A stretch of 64,000 nucleotides of DNA, taken from positions 6,152 to 70,151 of the IMG/VR virus record IMGVR_UViG_3300021959_000028. One strand, 5' to 3'. The notes beneath the pieces are model-generated. The model ran no database searches. It was not told where the DNA came from and saw nothing but the letters and a program-made list of their open reading frames with translations. Below are positions 27,678 to 31,517 of this stretch, in pieces. Within the stretch, counting starts at the first letter, position 1, and the number at the start of each line of letters is the position of its first letter. The DNA comes from a virus. Made by a program: the position numbers and the translations under genes.

Positions 27678-28301
27678 ATGATAAACTTACGAGAGCATTT
27701 GACATTCGACCAAGCACAGATTGTTGTGGAGAATGCCAACGAAGGAAAAGACTTGTATATGAAGGGAATTTGTATACAAGGCGGAGTACGCAACGCTAAC
27801 CAGCGTGTGTATCCTGTAAATGAAATTGGCAGGGCTGTCAAAACTCTCAATGATCAGATAGCAGGAGGATACAGTGTTCTCGGCGAAGTAGATCATCCAG
27901 AAGGCCTTAATATAAACTTAGACCGTGTAAGCCATATGATCCAAGAAACTTGGATGGATGGACCAAACGGTTATGGAAAACTTAAAATTTTACCAACACC
28001 GATGGGAAACCTAGTTCGCACTATGCTTGAAGCAGGTGTGAAACTAGGCGTCTCTTCGAGAGGTTCAGGTAACGTATCAGAAGACGGCAGTAACACCGTA
28101 TCAGATTTTGAAATAATCACCGTGGACGTTGTGGCTCAGCCCAGTGCCCCTGGTGCATATCCCACACCAATCTATGAGCATCTAATGAACGCTCGTGGCG
28201 GATATAAGGCATACGAATTAGCAGAGGCAACAAAACACGACAATAAGGCACAAAAATATTTAAAAGAGAGCTTATTAAACATAATAAGCGGGCTCCGATA
28301 A
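27678..28301 (+). CDS. Prohead protease, T4 gp21-like
   Basis: RNANQRVYP, GEVDHP, RVSH, GVSSRGSG and DVVAQPSAPGAY. Confidence 0.95.
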   Translation: MINLREHLTFDQAQIVVENANEGKDLYMKGICIQGGVRNANQRVYPVNEIGRAVKTLNDQIAGGYSVLGEVDHPEGLNINLDRVSHMIQETWMDGPNGYGKLKILPTPMGNLVRTMLEAGVKLGVSSRGSGNVSEDGSNTVSDFEIITVDVVAQPSAPGAYPTPIYEHLMNARGGYKAYELAEATKHDNKAQKYLKESLLNIISGLR

Positions 28302-28317: not shown

Positions 28318-29418
28318 ATGTTGGATGCACTAAAATCACTCTTCGAGAGCAGCGCAATTTCAGAAGAAGTAAAAGCAGAACTACAAGAAGCTTGGGACGA
28401 AAAAGTTCAAGAAAATCGTCGTAGTGTAACTGCCGAACTTCGTGAAGAATTTGCCCAGAAATATGAGCACGACAAGCAGACTATGGTCGAAGCTGTTGAC
28501 GCAATGATTTCTGAGCGTTTAGCTGAAGAGATCGCCGAATTTGCAGACGATCGTAAGCAGCTAGCCGAAGCTAAAGCAAAGTATGCCATTGCACAGCGTG
28601 AAAACGCAGAACTATTAAAAGGGTTCGTAATGGAACAACTTACAAAAGAAGTTTCGGAACTACACGAAGACAAGCAAGCTCAACAAGCAAAAATTGAAAT
28701 GCTTGAAGAGTTTATTGTAGAATCTCTTGCTAAAGAAATTGCAGAGTTTAACGAAGATAAAAAAGATTTAGCCGAAACAAAAGTACGTCTAGTACGTGAA
28801 GCTAAGTCACACCTAGCAAAAGTTAAAAATGACTTTATCGCTAGAGGTGCAAAAGCAGTATCAGAAACAGTTAGCAAATCTCTTAACAAAGAAATTAGTC
28901 AACTTAAAGAAGATATTGAAGATGCACGTAGAAACGACTTTGGTCGTAAGTTGTTTGAAGCATTCGCTAGCGAATATTCAAATAGCTATCTAAACGAAAA
29001 TAGCGAAACAGCAAAGCTACTAAAAGTTCTTGACGCTAAAGACAAGCAACTTGCAGAAGCAAAAGAATTTGTTGTTAAAGCAAAAAATCTTGCAGAAGCA
29101 CAGGAAAAGCAAAACAAGCGCATCCTTGCAGAAGCAAAGCGTAAAGATATTATGAATGATCTAGTTGGTTCGCTACCAAGCGAGCAAAGAGAAATCATGA
29201 CAGACTTACTGGAAAGTGTTCAAACTGACAGACTTCAATCTGCGTTTGAAAAATATCTACCAGCAGTAATTGATGGTAAAGGTCCAGCAAAGCGTAAGGC
29301 AGTATTATCAGAGGCAAAAGAAATTACAGGCAACCGTGAACAATCACAAACTAACGTTAGTTCAAAGGCAGACGCAGATCACAATGTGATTGATATTAAG
29401 CGTCTAGCTGGATTATAA
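28318..29418 (+). CDS. Prohead scaffolding protein, gp22-like
   Basis: Coiled-coil E/K/A-rich ORF between protease and capsid, with GRKLFEAFASEY. Confidence 0.85.
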   Translation: MLDALKSLFESSAISEEVKAELQEAWDEKVQENRRSVTAELREEFAQKYEHDKQTMVEAVDAMISERLAEEIAEFADDRKQLAEAKAKYAIAQRENAELLKGFVMEQLTKEVSELHEDKQAQQAKIEMLEEFIVESLAKEIAEFNEDKKDLAETKVRLVREAKSHLAKVKNDFIARGAKAVSETVSKSLNKEISQLKEDIEDARRNDFGRKLFEAFASEYSNSYLNENSETAKLLKVLDAKDKQLAEAKEFVVKAKNLAEAQEKQNKRILAEAKRKDIMNDLVGSLPSEQREIMTDLLESVQTDRLQSAFEKYLPAVIDGKGPAKRKAVLSEAKEITGNREQSQTNVSSKADADHNVIDIKRLAGL

Positions 29419-29431
29419 TGAGGAGATAATA

Positions 29432-30595
29432 ATGTCAGAACTACTAGAATCACGCTGGCAGGACACCAAAACAGCTCTTTTAGAAGGCCTACAAGGTAAC
29501 AAAAAGTCTGTAATGGCTGCCACACTAGAAAACACACGCAAGTACTTGTCAGAGAGTGCAACAGCGGGTGCAACAAGCGCAGGTAACGTAGCTACACTTA
29601 ACCGTGTAATTCTACCAGTTATCAGACGTGTAATGCCAACAGTTATTGCAAACGAGCTAGTTGGTGTACAACCAATGACTGGTCCAGTTGGACAAATCCA
29701 TACTCTACGTGTTCGCTACAGCGACACAGACAATGGTGCAACAGCTGGTGAAGAAGCACTAAGCCCATTCAAAATTGCTGAGTCATACTCAGGTGCTCCA
29801 GGCACATCTGCTGCACCAAGTTCAACAGCATCACTAGAAGGTGAAGCTGGTAACAGAATGTCAATTCAAATCTTGAAACAAACTGTTGAAGCGAAAACAC
29901 GTAAGCTATCAGCACGTTGGACATTCGAAGCAGCACAAGATGCTAATGCAATGCACGGTATCGATGTAGAAGCAGAAATCATGGCAGCTCTAGCACAAGA
30001 AATTACTGCTGAGATTGACCAAGAAGTTCTAGCTTCTCTAGGCTCACTAGCAGGTAACGCTGCTGAAACTTATGATCAAACAGCAGTTTCAGGTACAGCT
30101 ACTTTCGTAGGTGACGAGCATGCAGCTCTTGCTGTTCAAATCAACAGAGTATCAAACTTAATTGCACAGCGTACACGCCGTGGTGCAGGTAACTGGGCAG
30201 TTGTTAGCCCATTCGCGCTAACAATCCTACAGTCTGCAACAACTTCAGCGTTTGCTCGTACAACAGAAGGTACATTCGAAGCACCAACTAACACTAAAAT
30301 GGTTGGTACATTGAACAATGCAATGAAAGTATATGTAAACACATATGCAGCAGACAACGCACCAGTACTAATTGGTTATAAGGGTACTTCAGAGTCAGAC
30401 GCAGCAGCGTTCTACTGCCCATATATCCCACTAATGAGTTCAGGTGTTGTCCTAGATCCAGGCACATTCGAGCCAACAGTATCGTTTATGACACGTTACG
30501 GTTATGTTGAGCTATCGAACACTGCTTCGTCTCTAGGTAACGCAGCTGACTACCTAGGTAAAGTTGATATTGCCGCAGGTGTAACATTCAGCTAA
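29432..30595 (+). CDS. Major capsid protein, T4 gp23-like
   Basis: VIRRVMP...GVQPMTGPVGQI, KTRKLSARWTFEAAQD, EIDQE, FYCPYIPL and FMTRYG. Strong SD GAGGAG. Confidence 0.96.
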   Translation: MSELLESRWQDTKTALLEGLQGNKKSVMAATLENTRKYLSESATAGATSAGNVATLNRVILPVIRRVMPTVIANELVGVQPMTGPVGQIHTLRVRYSDTDNGATAGEEALSPFKIAESYSGAPGTSAAPSSTASLEGEAGNRMSIQILKQTVEAKTRKLSARWTFEAAQDANAMHGIDVEAEIMAALAQEITAEIDQEVLASLGSLAGNAAETYDQTAVSGTATFVGDEHAALAVQINRVSNLIAQRTRRGAGNWAVVSPFALTILQSATTSAFARTTEGTFEAPTNTKMVGTLNNAMKVYVNTYAADNAPVLIGYKGTSESDAAAFYCPYIPLMSSGVVLDPGTFEPTVSFMTRYGYVELSNTASSLGNAADYLGKVDIAAGVTFS

Positions 30596-30616
30596 GTTTA
30601 TAACTTAACTAAAAAC

Positions 30617-30645
30617 AAAATAGGCCCTACGGGGCCTATTTTTTT
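30617..30645 (+). terminator. Intrinsic terminator after the major capsid gene
   Basis: AAAATAGGCCC-TACG-GGGCCTATTTTTTT. Confidence 0.9.
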
Positions 30646-30667
30646 GACATTTTTTTATAAAAAGTGG

Positions 30668-30695
30668 TTGACATTTGTTTGTAAGATGTTATATT
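30668..30695 (+). promoter_or_regulatory. Sigma70-type promoter driving the tRNA-like RNA
   Basis: TTGACA (30668-30673), 16-bp spacer ending in TGn, TATATT (30690-30695). Confidence 0.65.
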
Positions 30696-30700
30696 AATAA

Positions 30701-30910
30701 TATAACAAGACGTTGTTATATGGGTTGGCGCTAACAATTTCCACTCTAGAGGAGATAAGCGCACTTGGTTAGGGGTAGTGCCCGGCGTAGAGTTTGGAGA
30801 CAAGCAGTACGCACACTGCGATACTAAGCAGAACTGAGGTTCTAAGCGATATGACAGAAAGGTATCTGGACGCTTAGTTAGAGGTAAACCCAAGTCCTCT
30901 ACCCACCCTT
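30701..30910 (+). ncRNA. Expanded tRNA-Pro-like non-coding RNA
   Basis: Acceptor-, D-, anticodon- and T-stem elements appear in canonical tRNA register (see findings). Flanked by its own promoter and terminator. Confidence 0.7.
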
Positions 30911-30915
30911 AATTT

Positions 30916-30948
30916 AAAAGCCCGATGCTTAACTGTGTCGGGCTTTTT
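30916..30948 (+). terminator. Intrinsic terminator closing the tRNA-like RNA
   Basis: AAAAGCCCGATGC-TTAACT-GTGTCGGGCTTTTT. Confidence 0.85.
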
Positions 30949-30958
30949 CTTTATTAGA

Positions 30959-31050
30959 TAAATACTTGTGTCAGATAGTGTGCCGCAAGGCGGACTTATG
31001 CTGTCCCAACAGCGTAGCGGCTAGAACCCGCATCGGACTTCTATAAAGGA
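30959..31050 (+). promoter_or_regulatory. Late promoter plus structured 5' leader RNA
   Basis: TAAATA at 30959. Stems GCC-GCAA-GGC, TATGCTGT-CCCA-ACAGCGTA and GCGG/CCGC are closed by GTCAGAT/ATCGGAC, just before the SD AAGGAG. Confidence 0.6.
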
Positions 31051-31058
31051 GAAAACAA

Positions 31059-31481
31059 ATGGGAAGACCATTAAATAAAAGATATTTTGGCCCACCAACA
31101 CCGGGCGGAAACGAAATTAAAGTACAGTTTTGGAACGGATCAGCTTCAGTTAACGGATGGATTGTAAAGCAAGTAGGATCAAAAAGATTCCTATGTTCAG
31201 ACGGTTCAAACGAAGAAGTTTGTGTTCTAGTAGACAAAGCTTCAGCTGCTATTACAGCAGGAGAAATGACAATTACAGTTCTTGATGATACTGCAACAGC
31301 ACGTCAAGTAACAAAAATTGCAGGACGCAAAGCTACACTTGATACAGGTGCAACAACTGCATGGACGTTTGATGATGCAAACAACGATGATAAAGTTGAA
31401 ATGGAAGAAGCAGGCGACGATACTACTATTGATGCAGGCGGTACAGACGAAGACGACTTCGAAACAGACGATCCAGCATAA
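31059..31481 (+). CDS. Hypothetical virion protein (possibly head-associated)
   Basis: MGRPLNKRYFG...WIVKQVGSKRFL. Strong SD. Follows the capsid gene. Confidence 0.75.
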   Translation: MGRPLNKRYFGPPTPGGNEIKVQFWNGSASVNGWIVKQVGSKRFLCSDGSNEEVCVLVDKASAAITAGEMTITVLDDTATARQVTKIAGRKATLDTGATTAWTFDDANNDDKVEMEEAGDDTTIDAGGTDEDDFETDDPA

Positions 31482-31493
31482 GTTGGATTTATT

Positions 31494-31517
31494 ATATGGG
31501 GGAGAAATCCCCCATAT
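31494..31517 (+). other. Perfect GAAA-loop hairpin (attenuator, weak terminator or processing site)
   Basis: ATATGGGGGA-GAAA-TCCCCCATAT, with no U-tract after it. Confidence 0.6.

What the first reader, a model, noticed from the sequence alone, without database searches (positions are those of the whole stretch)
30668..30948. Stand-alone 'inflated' tRNA-Pro-like RNA with insertions in every loop
Seen, in tRNA order and register: a 5-bp acceptor-like stem TGGGT (30721-25)/ACCCA (30901-05); T8 G9; D-stem GCGC (30728-31)/GCGC (30759-62); A26; anticodon stem 5' CTTGG (30764-68); TT-AGG-G (Pro anticodon AGG, G37); after a 48-nt insert, A38-CTAAG (30823-28); and T-stem AGAGG (30880-84)/CCTCT (30896-900) with loop TAAACCCAAGT. 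The core closely tracks bacterial tRNA-Pro as I recall it (TTGGCGC...AGCGCACTT.GTT.GGGA...GAGGT...TCCTCTA). The D-loop is 27 nt, the variable region about 50 nt with its own hairpins (AGAAC/GTTCT, TAAGCG/CGCTTA, CAGA/TCTG) and the T-loop 11 nt. The D-loop insert TTCCACTCTA can pair with the anticodon insert TAGAGTTTGGAG. There is no encoded CCA, and an 8-bp hairpin (30701-30720) sits directly 5'. The unit has its own sigma70 promoter and terminator and is insulated by the capsid terminator. Inference: an early-expressed tRNA-derived RNA, such as a decoy for anticodon nucleases or tRNA-binding enzymes, a ribosome ligand, or a multiply interrupted pre-tRNA. Standard tRNA scanners would probably miss it.
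Basis: partly seen in the sequence, partly recalled or inferred. Interest (0 to 1): 0.88.

Follow-up and report, generated by a model that had tools for sequence, protein, structure and literature searches.

The report
manA RNA gene, not a tRNA
The flagged stretch is a copy of the already catalogued phage "manA" folded RNA, here made as a small RNA gene of its own just behind the capsid gene of a giant phage, and it is not derived from a tRNA.

Summary
Window 30703-30910 (+) is a full-length member of Rfam RF01745 (manA RNA): 80.8 bits against a gathering score of 55.2. All three covary in homologues. The "anticodon stem" is not conserved (58% paired, no better than shuffles). The tRNA-Pro-like letters change in relatives. 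ARAGORN and Rfam find no tRNA, even in the insert-deleted constructs.

- 47 of 47 distinct copies in related uncultured phages have a near-consensus sigma70-type promoter abutting the first hairpin.
- 30 of 39 have an intrinsic terminator directly behind.
- The next gene has its own late-promoter-like box and freshwater-2 leader.
- Relatives lacking manA keep that box and leader.

Loops L8 and L9 stay complementary through about ten different sequences. This fits a 2026 preprint reporting that manA RNAs build RNA-only oligomers and cages.

Verdict: a known family and a new member, probably a free early RNA rather than a riboswitch. This scan has reported stand-alone manA-like RNAs before on other DNA.

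The parts
29432..30595 (+). Major capsid protein gene (T4 gp23 family); upstream neighbour, context only
   Evidence: Pfam Gp23 PF07068 E 1.2e-98; PHROG 138 major head protein
30617..30645 (+). Capsid-gene terminator hairpin (AAAATAGGCCC-TACG-GGGCCTATTTT, then T-run)
   Evidence: Read from the sequence. The scan tool listed it on the minus strand only. The same element follows gp23 in relatives.
30668..30695 (+). Sigma70-type promoter of the manA unit: TTGACA, 16 nt, TG-n-TATATT; the -10 box ends 7 nt before manA position 1
   Evidence: 11 of 12 consensus matches. The same promoter at a fixed distance in 23 of 23 copies and 47 of 47 distinct copies.
30703..30910 (+). manA RNA (Rfam RF01745), full length. 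Helices: P1 30703-08/30713-18; P2 30721-25/30901-05; P3a 30728-31/30759-62; P3b 30738-42/30751-55; P4 30765-70/30832-37; P5 30772-74/30781-83; P6a 30785-89/30808-12; P6b 30793-96/30801-04 (GAGA tetraloop); P7 30816-19/30828-31; P8a 30841-47/30872-78; P8b 30855-58/30865-68; P9 30880-84/30896-900
   Evidence: cmscan 80.8 bits, gathering score 55.2, E 4e-21, model positions 1-192. Helix list. Covariation.
30775..30780 (+). Loop L5 (GUAGUG). It is complementary to L7 (GAUACUAA, 30820-30827) over UAGU/ACUA
   Evidence: RNAalifold on the MAFFT alignment paired these loops, with the central pair A-U in 8 and G-C in 8 of 17 sequences. Fixed-column and permutation tests were not significant.
30859..30864 (+). 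Loop L8 (AAGGUA). It is complementary to L9 (UAAACCCAAGU, 30885-30895) over GGU/ACC
   Evidence: L8-L9 complementarity is kept through about ten different duplex sequences in relatives (4.04 vs 3.02 bp permuted, 0 of 1000).
30916..30952 (+). Intrinsic terminator of the manA unit (13-pair stem, then T-rich tail)
   Evidence: A hairpin plus T-run starts <= 12 nt after manA in 18 of 20 full-length copies and <= 20 nt after it in 30 of 39 distinct copies.
30957..30965 (+). GATAAATAC box, resembling a T4-type late promoter, serving the next gene; not part of the manA unit
   Evidence: An ATAAATA box follows in 19 of 20 and 30 of 39 copies. It is also present in manA-less relatives. The late-promoter consensus is recalled, not tested.
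30979..31061 (+). freshwater-2 RNA motif (Rfam RF02980), the 5' leader of ORF 31059-31481; neighbour, not part of manA
   Evidence: 75.7 bits, gathering score 49.9

Best explanation
The stretch is a gene for a manA-family RNA (RF01745) in an uncultured giant phage with a T4-type capsid.

Shown:
- Family membership.
- Twelve covarying helices. They form a 5' hairpin (P1) plus a five-way junction (P2 closing P3, P4, P8 and P9). P4 opens into three further hairpins (P5, P6 and P7), and P6 carries a GNRA tetraloop.

Inferred from conserved signals:
- Host sigma70 RNA polymerase starts at about 30702, right at P1.
- Transcription stops at the terminator around 30950, giving a free RNA of roughly 250 nt.
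- The RNA is made early, independently of the late capsid gene upstream and of the late-promoter/freshwater-2 gene downstream.

Inferred from the L8-L9 (and, less surely, L5-L7) loop complementarity, together with a 2026 cryo-EM preprint on other manA RNAs: the free RNA associates with copies of itself through kissing loops into closed oligomers.

What the assembly does for the phage is unknown. My confidence by step is about 0.97 for identity, 0.8 for a stand-alone transcript, and 0.4 for self-assembly being the working form in vivo.
For: Identity:
- RF01745 at 80.8 bits, gathering score 55.2, full model.
- 16 of 80 records of capsid-gene relatives match the Rfam model at E <= 0.01, 4 of them above the gathering score.
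- My own model R2 finds 22 of 80 loci, all on the capsid strand and 109-1002 nt behind gp23. That is 16 of the 48 loci long enough to assess.

Structure:
- 95.5% of cells paired and 51 of 58 pairs with changes on both sides.
- 94.8% paired and 42 of 57 pairs in a second set of 39 distinct rows.

Stand-alone unit:
- Promoter scoring >= 9 of 12 in 47 of 47 distinct copies, mostly 11 nt from the -10 box to P1.
- Terminator in 30 of 39.
- An ATAAATA box follows the terminator in 30 of 39.
- Four manA-less relatives read gp23 stop, terminator, GATAAATAC, freshwater-2, ATG. manA with its promoter and terminator is therefore an optional cassette.
- There are no more terminator-to-manA complementarities than with shuffled hairpins: 86 vs 98.6 in 18 loci.
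- No reading frame stays open across the element in relatives.

Self-association:
- L8-L9 Watson-Crick complementarity is 4.04 bp cognate vs 3.02 permuted, 0 of 1000.
- L6 is a GNRA loop in 19 of 20 copies.
- bioRxiv 10.64898/2026.07.01.735769 (passages and section 8 read) reports manA decamers and a 60-mer held by L5-L7' and L8-L9' kissing loops.

Weak: contigs of 4 of 4 metatranscriptome runs, from 4 studies, lie on 30710-30925 at >= 88% likeness.
Against: - No transcript ends were mapped. The RNA-library data are contigs from relatives, and such libraries can contain DNA.
- 9 of 39 copies lack an immediate terminator. Two run straight into tRNA-Gly. Others continue into further non-coding sequence.
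- In cyanophage P-SSM2, manA ends 16 nt before the purL start codon. The family can therefore also sit as a leader.
- In the window the L8-L9 match is only 3 bp (GGU/ACC).
- L5-L7 covariation is not significant by permutation (3.19 vs 3.15, 308 of 1000) or by fixed columns (67% vs 67.6%).
- Covariation cannot distinguish contacts within one molecule from contacts between molecules.
- The permutation control is not a probability. A trivial pair (L1-L6, 1.40 vs 1.24 bp) also reached 0 of 1000.
- The oligomer result is an in vitro preprint on other family members.
Confidence: 0.72

Rival explanations
1. manA is a cis-acting riboswitch or leader, as first proposed for the family. A ligand or factor would set read-through of the 30916-30947 terminator into the downstream 140-aa gene.
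For: Weinberg et al. 2010 (PMC2864571, passages read) rated manA cis-regulatory and a likely riboswitch. The layout promoter, structured RNA, terminator, same-strand gene is the classic arrangement. In P-SSM2, manA ends 16 nt before purL.
Against: The terminator does not overlap the conserved RNA; it starts 5-12 nt behind it. No conserved alternative pairing was found: 86 matches vs 98.6 for shuffled hairpins. The downstream gene has its own late-promoter-like box and its own conserved leader, freshwater-2. Relatives without manA keep that box, leader and gene. The genes behind manA differ between copies: tRNA-Gly, further RNA sequence, various ORFs.
Confidence: 0.13
2. A tRNA-derived RNA: an inflated tRNA-Pro mimic or an interrupted pre-tRNA, acting as a decoy for anticodon nucleases or tRNA-binding enzymes.
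For: The five-way junction reads in tRNA order. Three of the four proposed stems are real helices. A conserved UG lies between P2 and P3, where U8 and G9 would be. Two relatives carry a tRNA-Gly 5 nt behind manA.
Against: ARAGORN finds no tRNA in the window. It finds none in the unit, the core or two insert-deleted constructs at default and 80% thresholds. No tRNA, tmRNA or Y RNA appears among 27 Rfam matches at E <= 10. The anticodon stem is not conserved. 'AGG' is part of helix P5. The closing stem is 5 bp, is preceded by a hairpin and has no CCA. The 'T-loop' is 11-14 nt. The tRNA-Pro-like letters are replaced in relatives.
Confidence: 0.02
3. A free small RNA that acts as a monomer, for example as a protein-binding scaffold or sponge for a host or phage factor. 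The loop complementarities would then be tertiary contacts within one molecule.
For: The same transcription-unit evidence applies. Weinberg 2010 drew a possible intramolecular pseudoknot (figure legend). A small ORF with faint OB-fold hits sits just upstream of the manA promoter in 7 loci.
Against: P8 is a long arm (7 bp, internal loop, 4 bp) and P9 has only 5 bp. Their loops lie at very different distances from the junction, so an intramolecular L8-L9 contact looks strained; this is inference. The preprint's structures show these contacts between molecules. The OB-fold hits are below the Pfam cut-offs, and the ORF is absent from the window's record.
Confidence: 0.2

Closest known systems
manA RNA motif, Rfam RF01745 (Weinberg et al. 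2010, PMC2864571)
   Same: Full-length match above the gathering score. Same helices, same junction order, L5 GURGUR loop, and the GGU...UCC hairpin P9.
   Different: It lies in a giant phage related to Eneladusvirus, PA5oct and Vibrio phage 2.275.O, not in a cyanophage or Photobacterium. Most clade members score below Rfam's cut-off: 12 of the 16 Rfam hits. It ends in its own terminator rather than leading into a gene.
manA copies of cyanophages P-SSM4 and P-SSM2
   Same: 184 and 182 bits to RF01745. Both also have TTGACA-17-TATAAT ending a few nt before P1, and complementary L8/L9 loops (CUGU/ACAG, CUGUA/UACAG; read).
   Different: P-SSM2 manA ends 16 nt before the purL start, with no separate hairpin terminator. 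P-SSM4 manA lies behind pstS and is overlapped by an annotated small ORF. The loop sequences differ from the window's.
Cryo-EM manA assemblies (bioRxiv 10.64898/2026.07.01.735769)
   Same: The window RNA has the elements named as interfaces: L5-L7 and L8-L9 complementarity, as in the 60-mer former, and a GNRA L6, as in the decamer former.
   Different: I could not see the sequences of the imaged RNAs, because supplements are closed. Which class the window copy resembles, and whether it oligomerises at all, is untested.
tRNA (class II, long variable arm)
   Same: Five-way junction read in the same order. Short UG linker after the closing stem.
   Different: No tRNA model or scanner matches. The arm in the anticodon position is itself a four-way junction. 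The closing stem is 5 bp. There is no T-loop, D-loop or anticodon-loop signature and no CCA.

Membership tests
manA RNA (Rfam RF01745) | Covariance-model score at or above the curated gathering score over the whole model | tested here: met
   80.8 bits vs 55.2, model positions 1-192 of 192, E 4e-21; confirmed. The whole-window scan in gathering mode did not list it.
manA RNA (Rfam RF01745) | Consensus helices kept by compensatory change in homologues | tested here: met
   12 of 12 helices are 85-100% paired. 51 of 58 pairs change on both sides, with 0 of 500 shuffles as high. A second set gives 94.8% paired. Both alignments were fitted to the model.
manA RNA (Rfam RF01745) | Placement as a 5' leader directly upstream of a coding gene (typical of the family as described, not part of the Rfam model) | tested here: not met
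   It has its own terminator at 30916-30947. A separate late-promoter-like box and the freshwater-2 leader then precede the next ORF.
manA RNA (Rfam RF01745) | Homo-oligomerisation through L5-L7' and L8-L9' kissing loops (preprint) | not testable with these tools
   Only complementarity could be checked. L8-L9 is supported. L5-L7 is mixed.
tRNA | Recognised by tRNA scanners or the Rfam tRNA model | tested here: not met
   ARAGORN finds 0 genes in the window. It finds 0 in the unit, core and two insert-deleted constructs at default and 80% thresholds. At 70% there is one call, on the opposite strand of the full unit only. No tRNA appears among Rfam matches at E <= 10.
tRNA | Conserved anticodon arm (5-bp stem, 7-nt loop) | tested here: not met
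   The proposed stem is 58.3% paired, with 112 of 500 shuffles as high. Its loop residues form helix P5.
tRNA | 7-bp acceptor stem with free 5' end and 3' CCA or discriminator; 7-nt T-loop | tested here: not met
   The closing stem is 5 bp and is preceded by hairpin P1. There is no CCA. The P9 loop is 11-14 nt.
tmRNA / Y RNA | Match to the Rfam models | tested here: not met
   None among the 27 matches at E <= 10. ARAGORN finds no tmRNA.
Transcription-terminating riboswitch | Expression platform whose terminator competes with part of the conserved aptamer | tested here: not met
   There is no overlap and no conserved alternative pairing: 86 vs 98.6 matches in 18 loci.
Transcription-terminating riboswitch | Specific ligand binding | not testable with these tools
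   No ligand is known for manA.

The most novel reading that the evidence does not exclude
In this lineage of giant phages, manA is a free RNA transcribed early from a near-consensus host promoter. In the infected cell it assembles through L5-L7' and L8-L9' kissing loops into closed RNA-only oligomers or cages. The loop complementarity kept through about ten different sequences would then be the evolutionary trace of selection on those quaternary contacts, meaning the cages seen in vitro exist in nature.
Probability: 0.3. Interest if true: 0.8.

Novelty: new member of a known kind. Interest (0 to 1): 0.33.

Why it matters
The tRNA reading would have been striking, but it does not hold; this is a catalogued RNA family. 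Two results have some value beyond that.

First, in this phage lineage manA behaves as a gene of its own: a fixed promoter, a terminator, and presence or absence as a cassette. This argues against the riboswitch label the family has carried since 2010.

Second, loops L8 and L9 keep their complementarity through many sequence changes. That is natural-history support for the loop contacts a 2026 preprint reports in RNA-only cages. It also offers a set of natural compensatory variants for testing those contacts.

Tried and rejected
- A blastn search of 30596-31070 against cultured phages found nothing.
- The whole-window Rfam scan in gathering mode missed manA. Only the short-region scan and the genome search found it.
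- The MAFFT alignment A1 put the window row out of register at P2/P3, so I did not use it for pair counts.
- Model R1 with default filters missed 7 copies that the Rfam model had found. I recovered them with filters off and with model R2.
- L5-L7 by fixed columns and register-free tests that allow G-U pairs did not separate cognate from non-cognate loops.
- RF01745 was not found in 5 cultured relatives: Vibrio 2.275.O, Serratia BF, PA5oct, Phosso and pEa_SNUABM_47. R2 was not found in the 5 largest manA-less relatives. Fragments and the loose first look mean this does not prove absence.
- RNA-library contigs: bins 30602-30655 and 31142-31500 had almost no cover. These are contigs of relatives laid at 88% likeness, so lack of cover says nothing about transcript ends.
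- Small-share runs are not used for habitat.
- The small ORF upstream of manA in 7 loci gave only sub-threshold CSD and RsgA_N hits, and it is not in the window's record.
- Supplements of the preprint and of Weinberg 2010 were closed. They hold the imaged RNA sequences and the gene-context lists, and they may bear on which assembly class this copy resembles.
- Not-in-print claim: searches for 'manA RNA'+'motif', 'RF01745' and 'manA motif' listed no paper whose title or abstract treats manA as a terminated stand-alone RNA; I read passages of five of them, and none does. I did not open PMC3023696, PMC3692125, PMC10832533 or PMC6037986.

Full report
**What is there.** The window comes from a 70,151-base virus record that CheckV estimates to be 19% complete. 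Around the finding lie a gp21-type prohead protease (27678-28301), a scaffold-like gene (28318-29418) and a gp23-family major capsid gene (29432-30595). The nearest cultured capsid proteins belong to giant phages of about 290-470 kb:
- Sinorhizobium phage Phosso, 71.5% identity
- Vibrio phage 2.275.O, 71.2%
- PA5oct-like Pseudomonas phages, 68.5%
- Eneladusvirus (Serratia BF, Yersinia fHe-Yen9-04, Erwinia pEa_SNUABM), 67.8%

**Identity.** A scan of 30590-31070 against all Rfam families gave manA RNA (RF01745) at 30703-30910. The score was 80.8 bits against a gathering score of 55.2, E 4e-21, over the whole model. The genome search repeated the result. The whole-window scan in gathering mode had not listed it, which shows that the speed filters can lose this family. 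The same scan found freshwater-2 (RF02980, 75.7 bits) at 30979-31061, ending on the ATG of ORF 31059-31481. ARAGORN found no tRNA or tmRNA in the window. No tRNA, tmRNA or Y RNA model appeared among the 27 Rfam matches at E <= 10.

**Structure and its support.** Mapping the Rfam consensus onto the window gives twelve helices:
- P1, a 5' hairpin.
- P2, which closes a five-way junction with P3, P4, P8 and P9.
- P4, which opens into three hairpins, P5, P6 and P7. P6 carries a GAGA tetraloop.

The window RNA folded alone gives the same architecture: -66.4 kcal/mol, z = -3.2, with 1 of 200 shuffles as good.

I fetched the 80 best of at least 598 capsid-gene relatives from viral contigs.
- The Rfam model matched 16 of the 80 records at E <= 0.01. 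Only 4 were above the gathering score.
- A model built from the window and its closest relative, and then a second model (R2) built from 20 copies, found manA in 22 of 80 loci. Nineteen were full length and 3 were cut by contig ends.
- All copies lie on the capsid strand, 109-1002 nt behind gp23.
- That is 16 of the 48 loci with enough downstream sequence to judge.

On the 20-sequence alignment, 95.5% of 1024 cells pair and 51 of 58 pairs change on both sides. No shuffle of 500 reaches this, and slid controls give 36-42%. A second set of 39 distinct rows gives 94.8%. Both alignments were fitted to the model, which favours the structure. However, RNAalifold on an independent MAFFT alignment recovered P2, P3a, P4, P6, P8 and P9. 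No reading frame stays open across the element in relatives.

**The tRNA reading.** The other proposed pairings fail:
- The anticodon stem is not conserved: 58.3% paired, with 112 of 500 shuffles as high. Its 3' half lies in P7.
- 'AGG' is the junction A plus the 5' strand of P5.
- The AGAAC/GTTCT hairpin is 45% paired, with 105 of 500 shuffles as high.
- The D-loop/insert pairing is 45.5% paired, with 440 of 500 shuffles as high.

The letters said to track tRNA-Pro occur only in the window and its nearest relative. Elsewhere P2 is GAUAG/CUAUC and P3a is CAAG/CUUG. ARAGORN called nothing in the unit, the core or the two insert-deleted constructs at default or 80% thresholds. At 70% it made one call, on the opposite strand of the full unit only. 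The likeness is topological: a five-way junction reads in cloverleaf order.

**Transcription unit.**
- All 23 copies first collected have TTGAC(A/T/C), 16-17 nt, then a TATATT-like box scoring 9-11 of 12. Twenty-two of the 23 have the TG extension. The -10 box usually ends 11 nt before P1.
- 18 of 20 full-length copies have a GC-rich hairpin plus T-run starting within 12 nt of the RNA's end.
- A wider set, fetched with a 14-nt clade-specific pattern, raised this to 47 of 47 distinct copies with the promoter and 30 of 39 with an immediate terminator.
- Behind the terminator comes an ATAAATA(C) box in 30 of 39 copies. From memory it resembles the T4-type late promoter TATAAATA.
- In the window, GATAAATAC occurs four times, all on the coding strand.
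- Four relatives without manA read gp23 stop, terminator, GATAAATAC, freshwater-2, Shine-Dalgarno, ATG.

The downstream gene therefore has its own promoter and leader with or without manA. The manA unit (promoter, RNA, terminator) is an optional cassette in a variable slot that also takes up other small genes.

**Exceptions.**
- Two distinct copies run into a tRNA-Gly(UCC) gene 5 nt behind manA.
- Others continue into further non-coding sequence before a later terminator or ORF.

**Riboswitch rival.** The terminator does not overlap the conserved RNA. Complementarities of 7 bp or more between terminator hairpins and the manA body are no more frequent than for shuffled hairpins (86 vs 98.6 in 18 loci) and do not cluster at a conserved site. 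Against my reading, P-SSM2 manA ends 16 nt before purL, so the family can also sit as a leader. Both cyanophage copies nevertheless have a consensus sigma70-type promoter abutting P1.

**Loop contacts.** Weinberg et al. 2010 described manA as a riboswitch candidate from marine metagenomes, T4-like cyanophages and two gamma-proteobacteria (PMC2864571, passages). A 2026 preprint reports cryo-EM structures in which manA RNAs form pentamer-based octamers, decamers and a 60-subunit icosahedral cage. These are held by L5-L7' and L8-L9' kissing loops, or by an L6 GNRA-receptor contact with L5-L7' and L3-L8' (bioRxiv 10.64898/2026.07.01.735769, passages and section 8).

- **L8-L9.** In this clade L8 and L9 stay Watson-Crick complementary through about ten different duplexes, among them AUGA/UCAU, AGGAU/AUCCU, GAGA/UCUC, UGAU/AUCA, CAGA/UCUG, GUG/CAC and GGU/ACC. 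The cognate mean is 4.04 bp against 3.02 when loops are permuted among 47 distinct sets, with 0 of 1000 permutations as high. The window's own match is only GGU/ACC.
- **L6.** It is a GNRA loop in 19 of 20 copies.
- **L5-L7.** It is complementary in the window (UAGU/ACUA). RNAalifold paired it with A-U in 8 and G-C in 8 of 17 sequences. The permutation and fixed-column tests were not significant.
- **Limits.** Sequences are related, so the permutation counts are not probabilities. A trivial pair (L1-L6) also reached 0 of 1000. Covariation cannot tell contacts within a molecule from contacts between molecules.

**Expression.** Contigs from 4 of 4 metatranscriptome runs, from four studies, lie on the manA body at 88% likeness or more. 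This is weak evidence. They are contigs of relatives, and RNA libraries can hold DNA.

**Verdict.** This is a real, conserved, structured RNA and a new member of the known manA family in a giant-phage lineage. It is not tRNA-derived. Most likely it is a free RNA of about 250 nt made from a host-type promoter. Self-association through loop contacts is plausible but untested. Its use to the phage is unknown. This scan has already reported stand-alone manA-like RNAs on other DNA: 396 notes in at least 299 genomes.

Noticed in passing
window 30979-31061: freshwater-2 RNA motif (RF02980, 75.7 bits). It lies directly behind a GATAAATAC box and ends on the ATG of the 140-aa ORF. It is kept in relatives with and without manA.
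   Followed up: partly
L025 4289-4573; L130 4157-4439: In two distinct relatives manA has no terminator, and a tRNA-Gly(UCC) gene starts 5 nt behind it. manA and the tRNA would be one transcript.
   Followed up: partly
L040 4930-5124, L041 4248-4454, L060 3407-3619 and four more loci: A conserved 64-70 aa ORF lies directly upstream of the manA promoter in 7 loci. It gives only sub-threshold cold-shock-domain and RsgA_N (OB-fold) hits, and it is not found in the window's record.
   Followed up: partly
L119 3905-4100; L177 (minus strand) behind 3623: Some manA copies are followed by 100-200 nt of shared, apparently structured non-coding sequence instead of a terminator. This could be an extra 3' RNA domain. 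ARAGORN also calls a permuted tmRNA at L119 12895-13351.
   Followed up: no
L110 1085-1258 (P-SSM4 164884-165057): The annotated hypothetical protein PSSM4_169.1 overlaps the manA RNA at 164829-165014 (184 bits) and is probably not a gene. The window's minus-strand ORF 30636-30893 is likewise not conserved.
   Followed up: partly
L058 4291-4662: An S-adenosylmethionine decarboxylase-like ORF (PF02675, E 1.7e-11) sits in the variable slot between the capsid gene and manA.
   Followed up: no
window 21325, 30957, 33562, 51819: GATAAATAC occurs four times, all on the coding strand (expected 0.95). These are probably late promoters of the structural gene clusters.
   Followed up: partly
window 1-64000: A whole-window Rfam scan with gathering thresholds and default filters did not report manA, although it scores 25 bits above the cut-off. 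Routine annotation may miss this family.
   Followed up: yes
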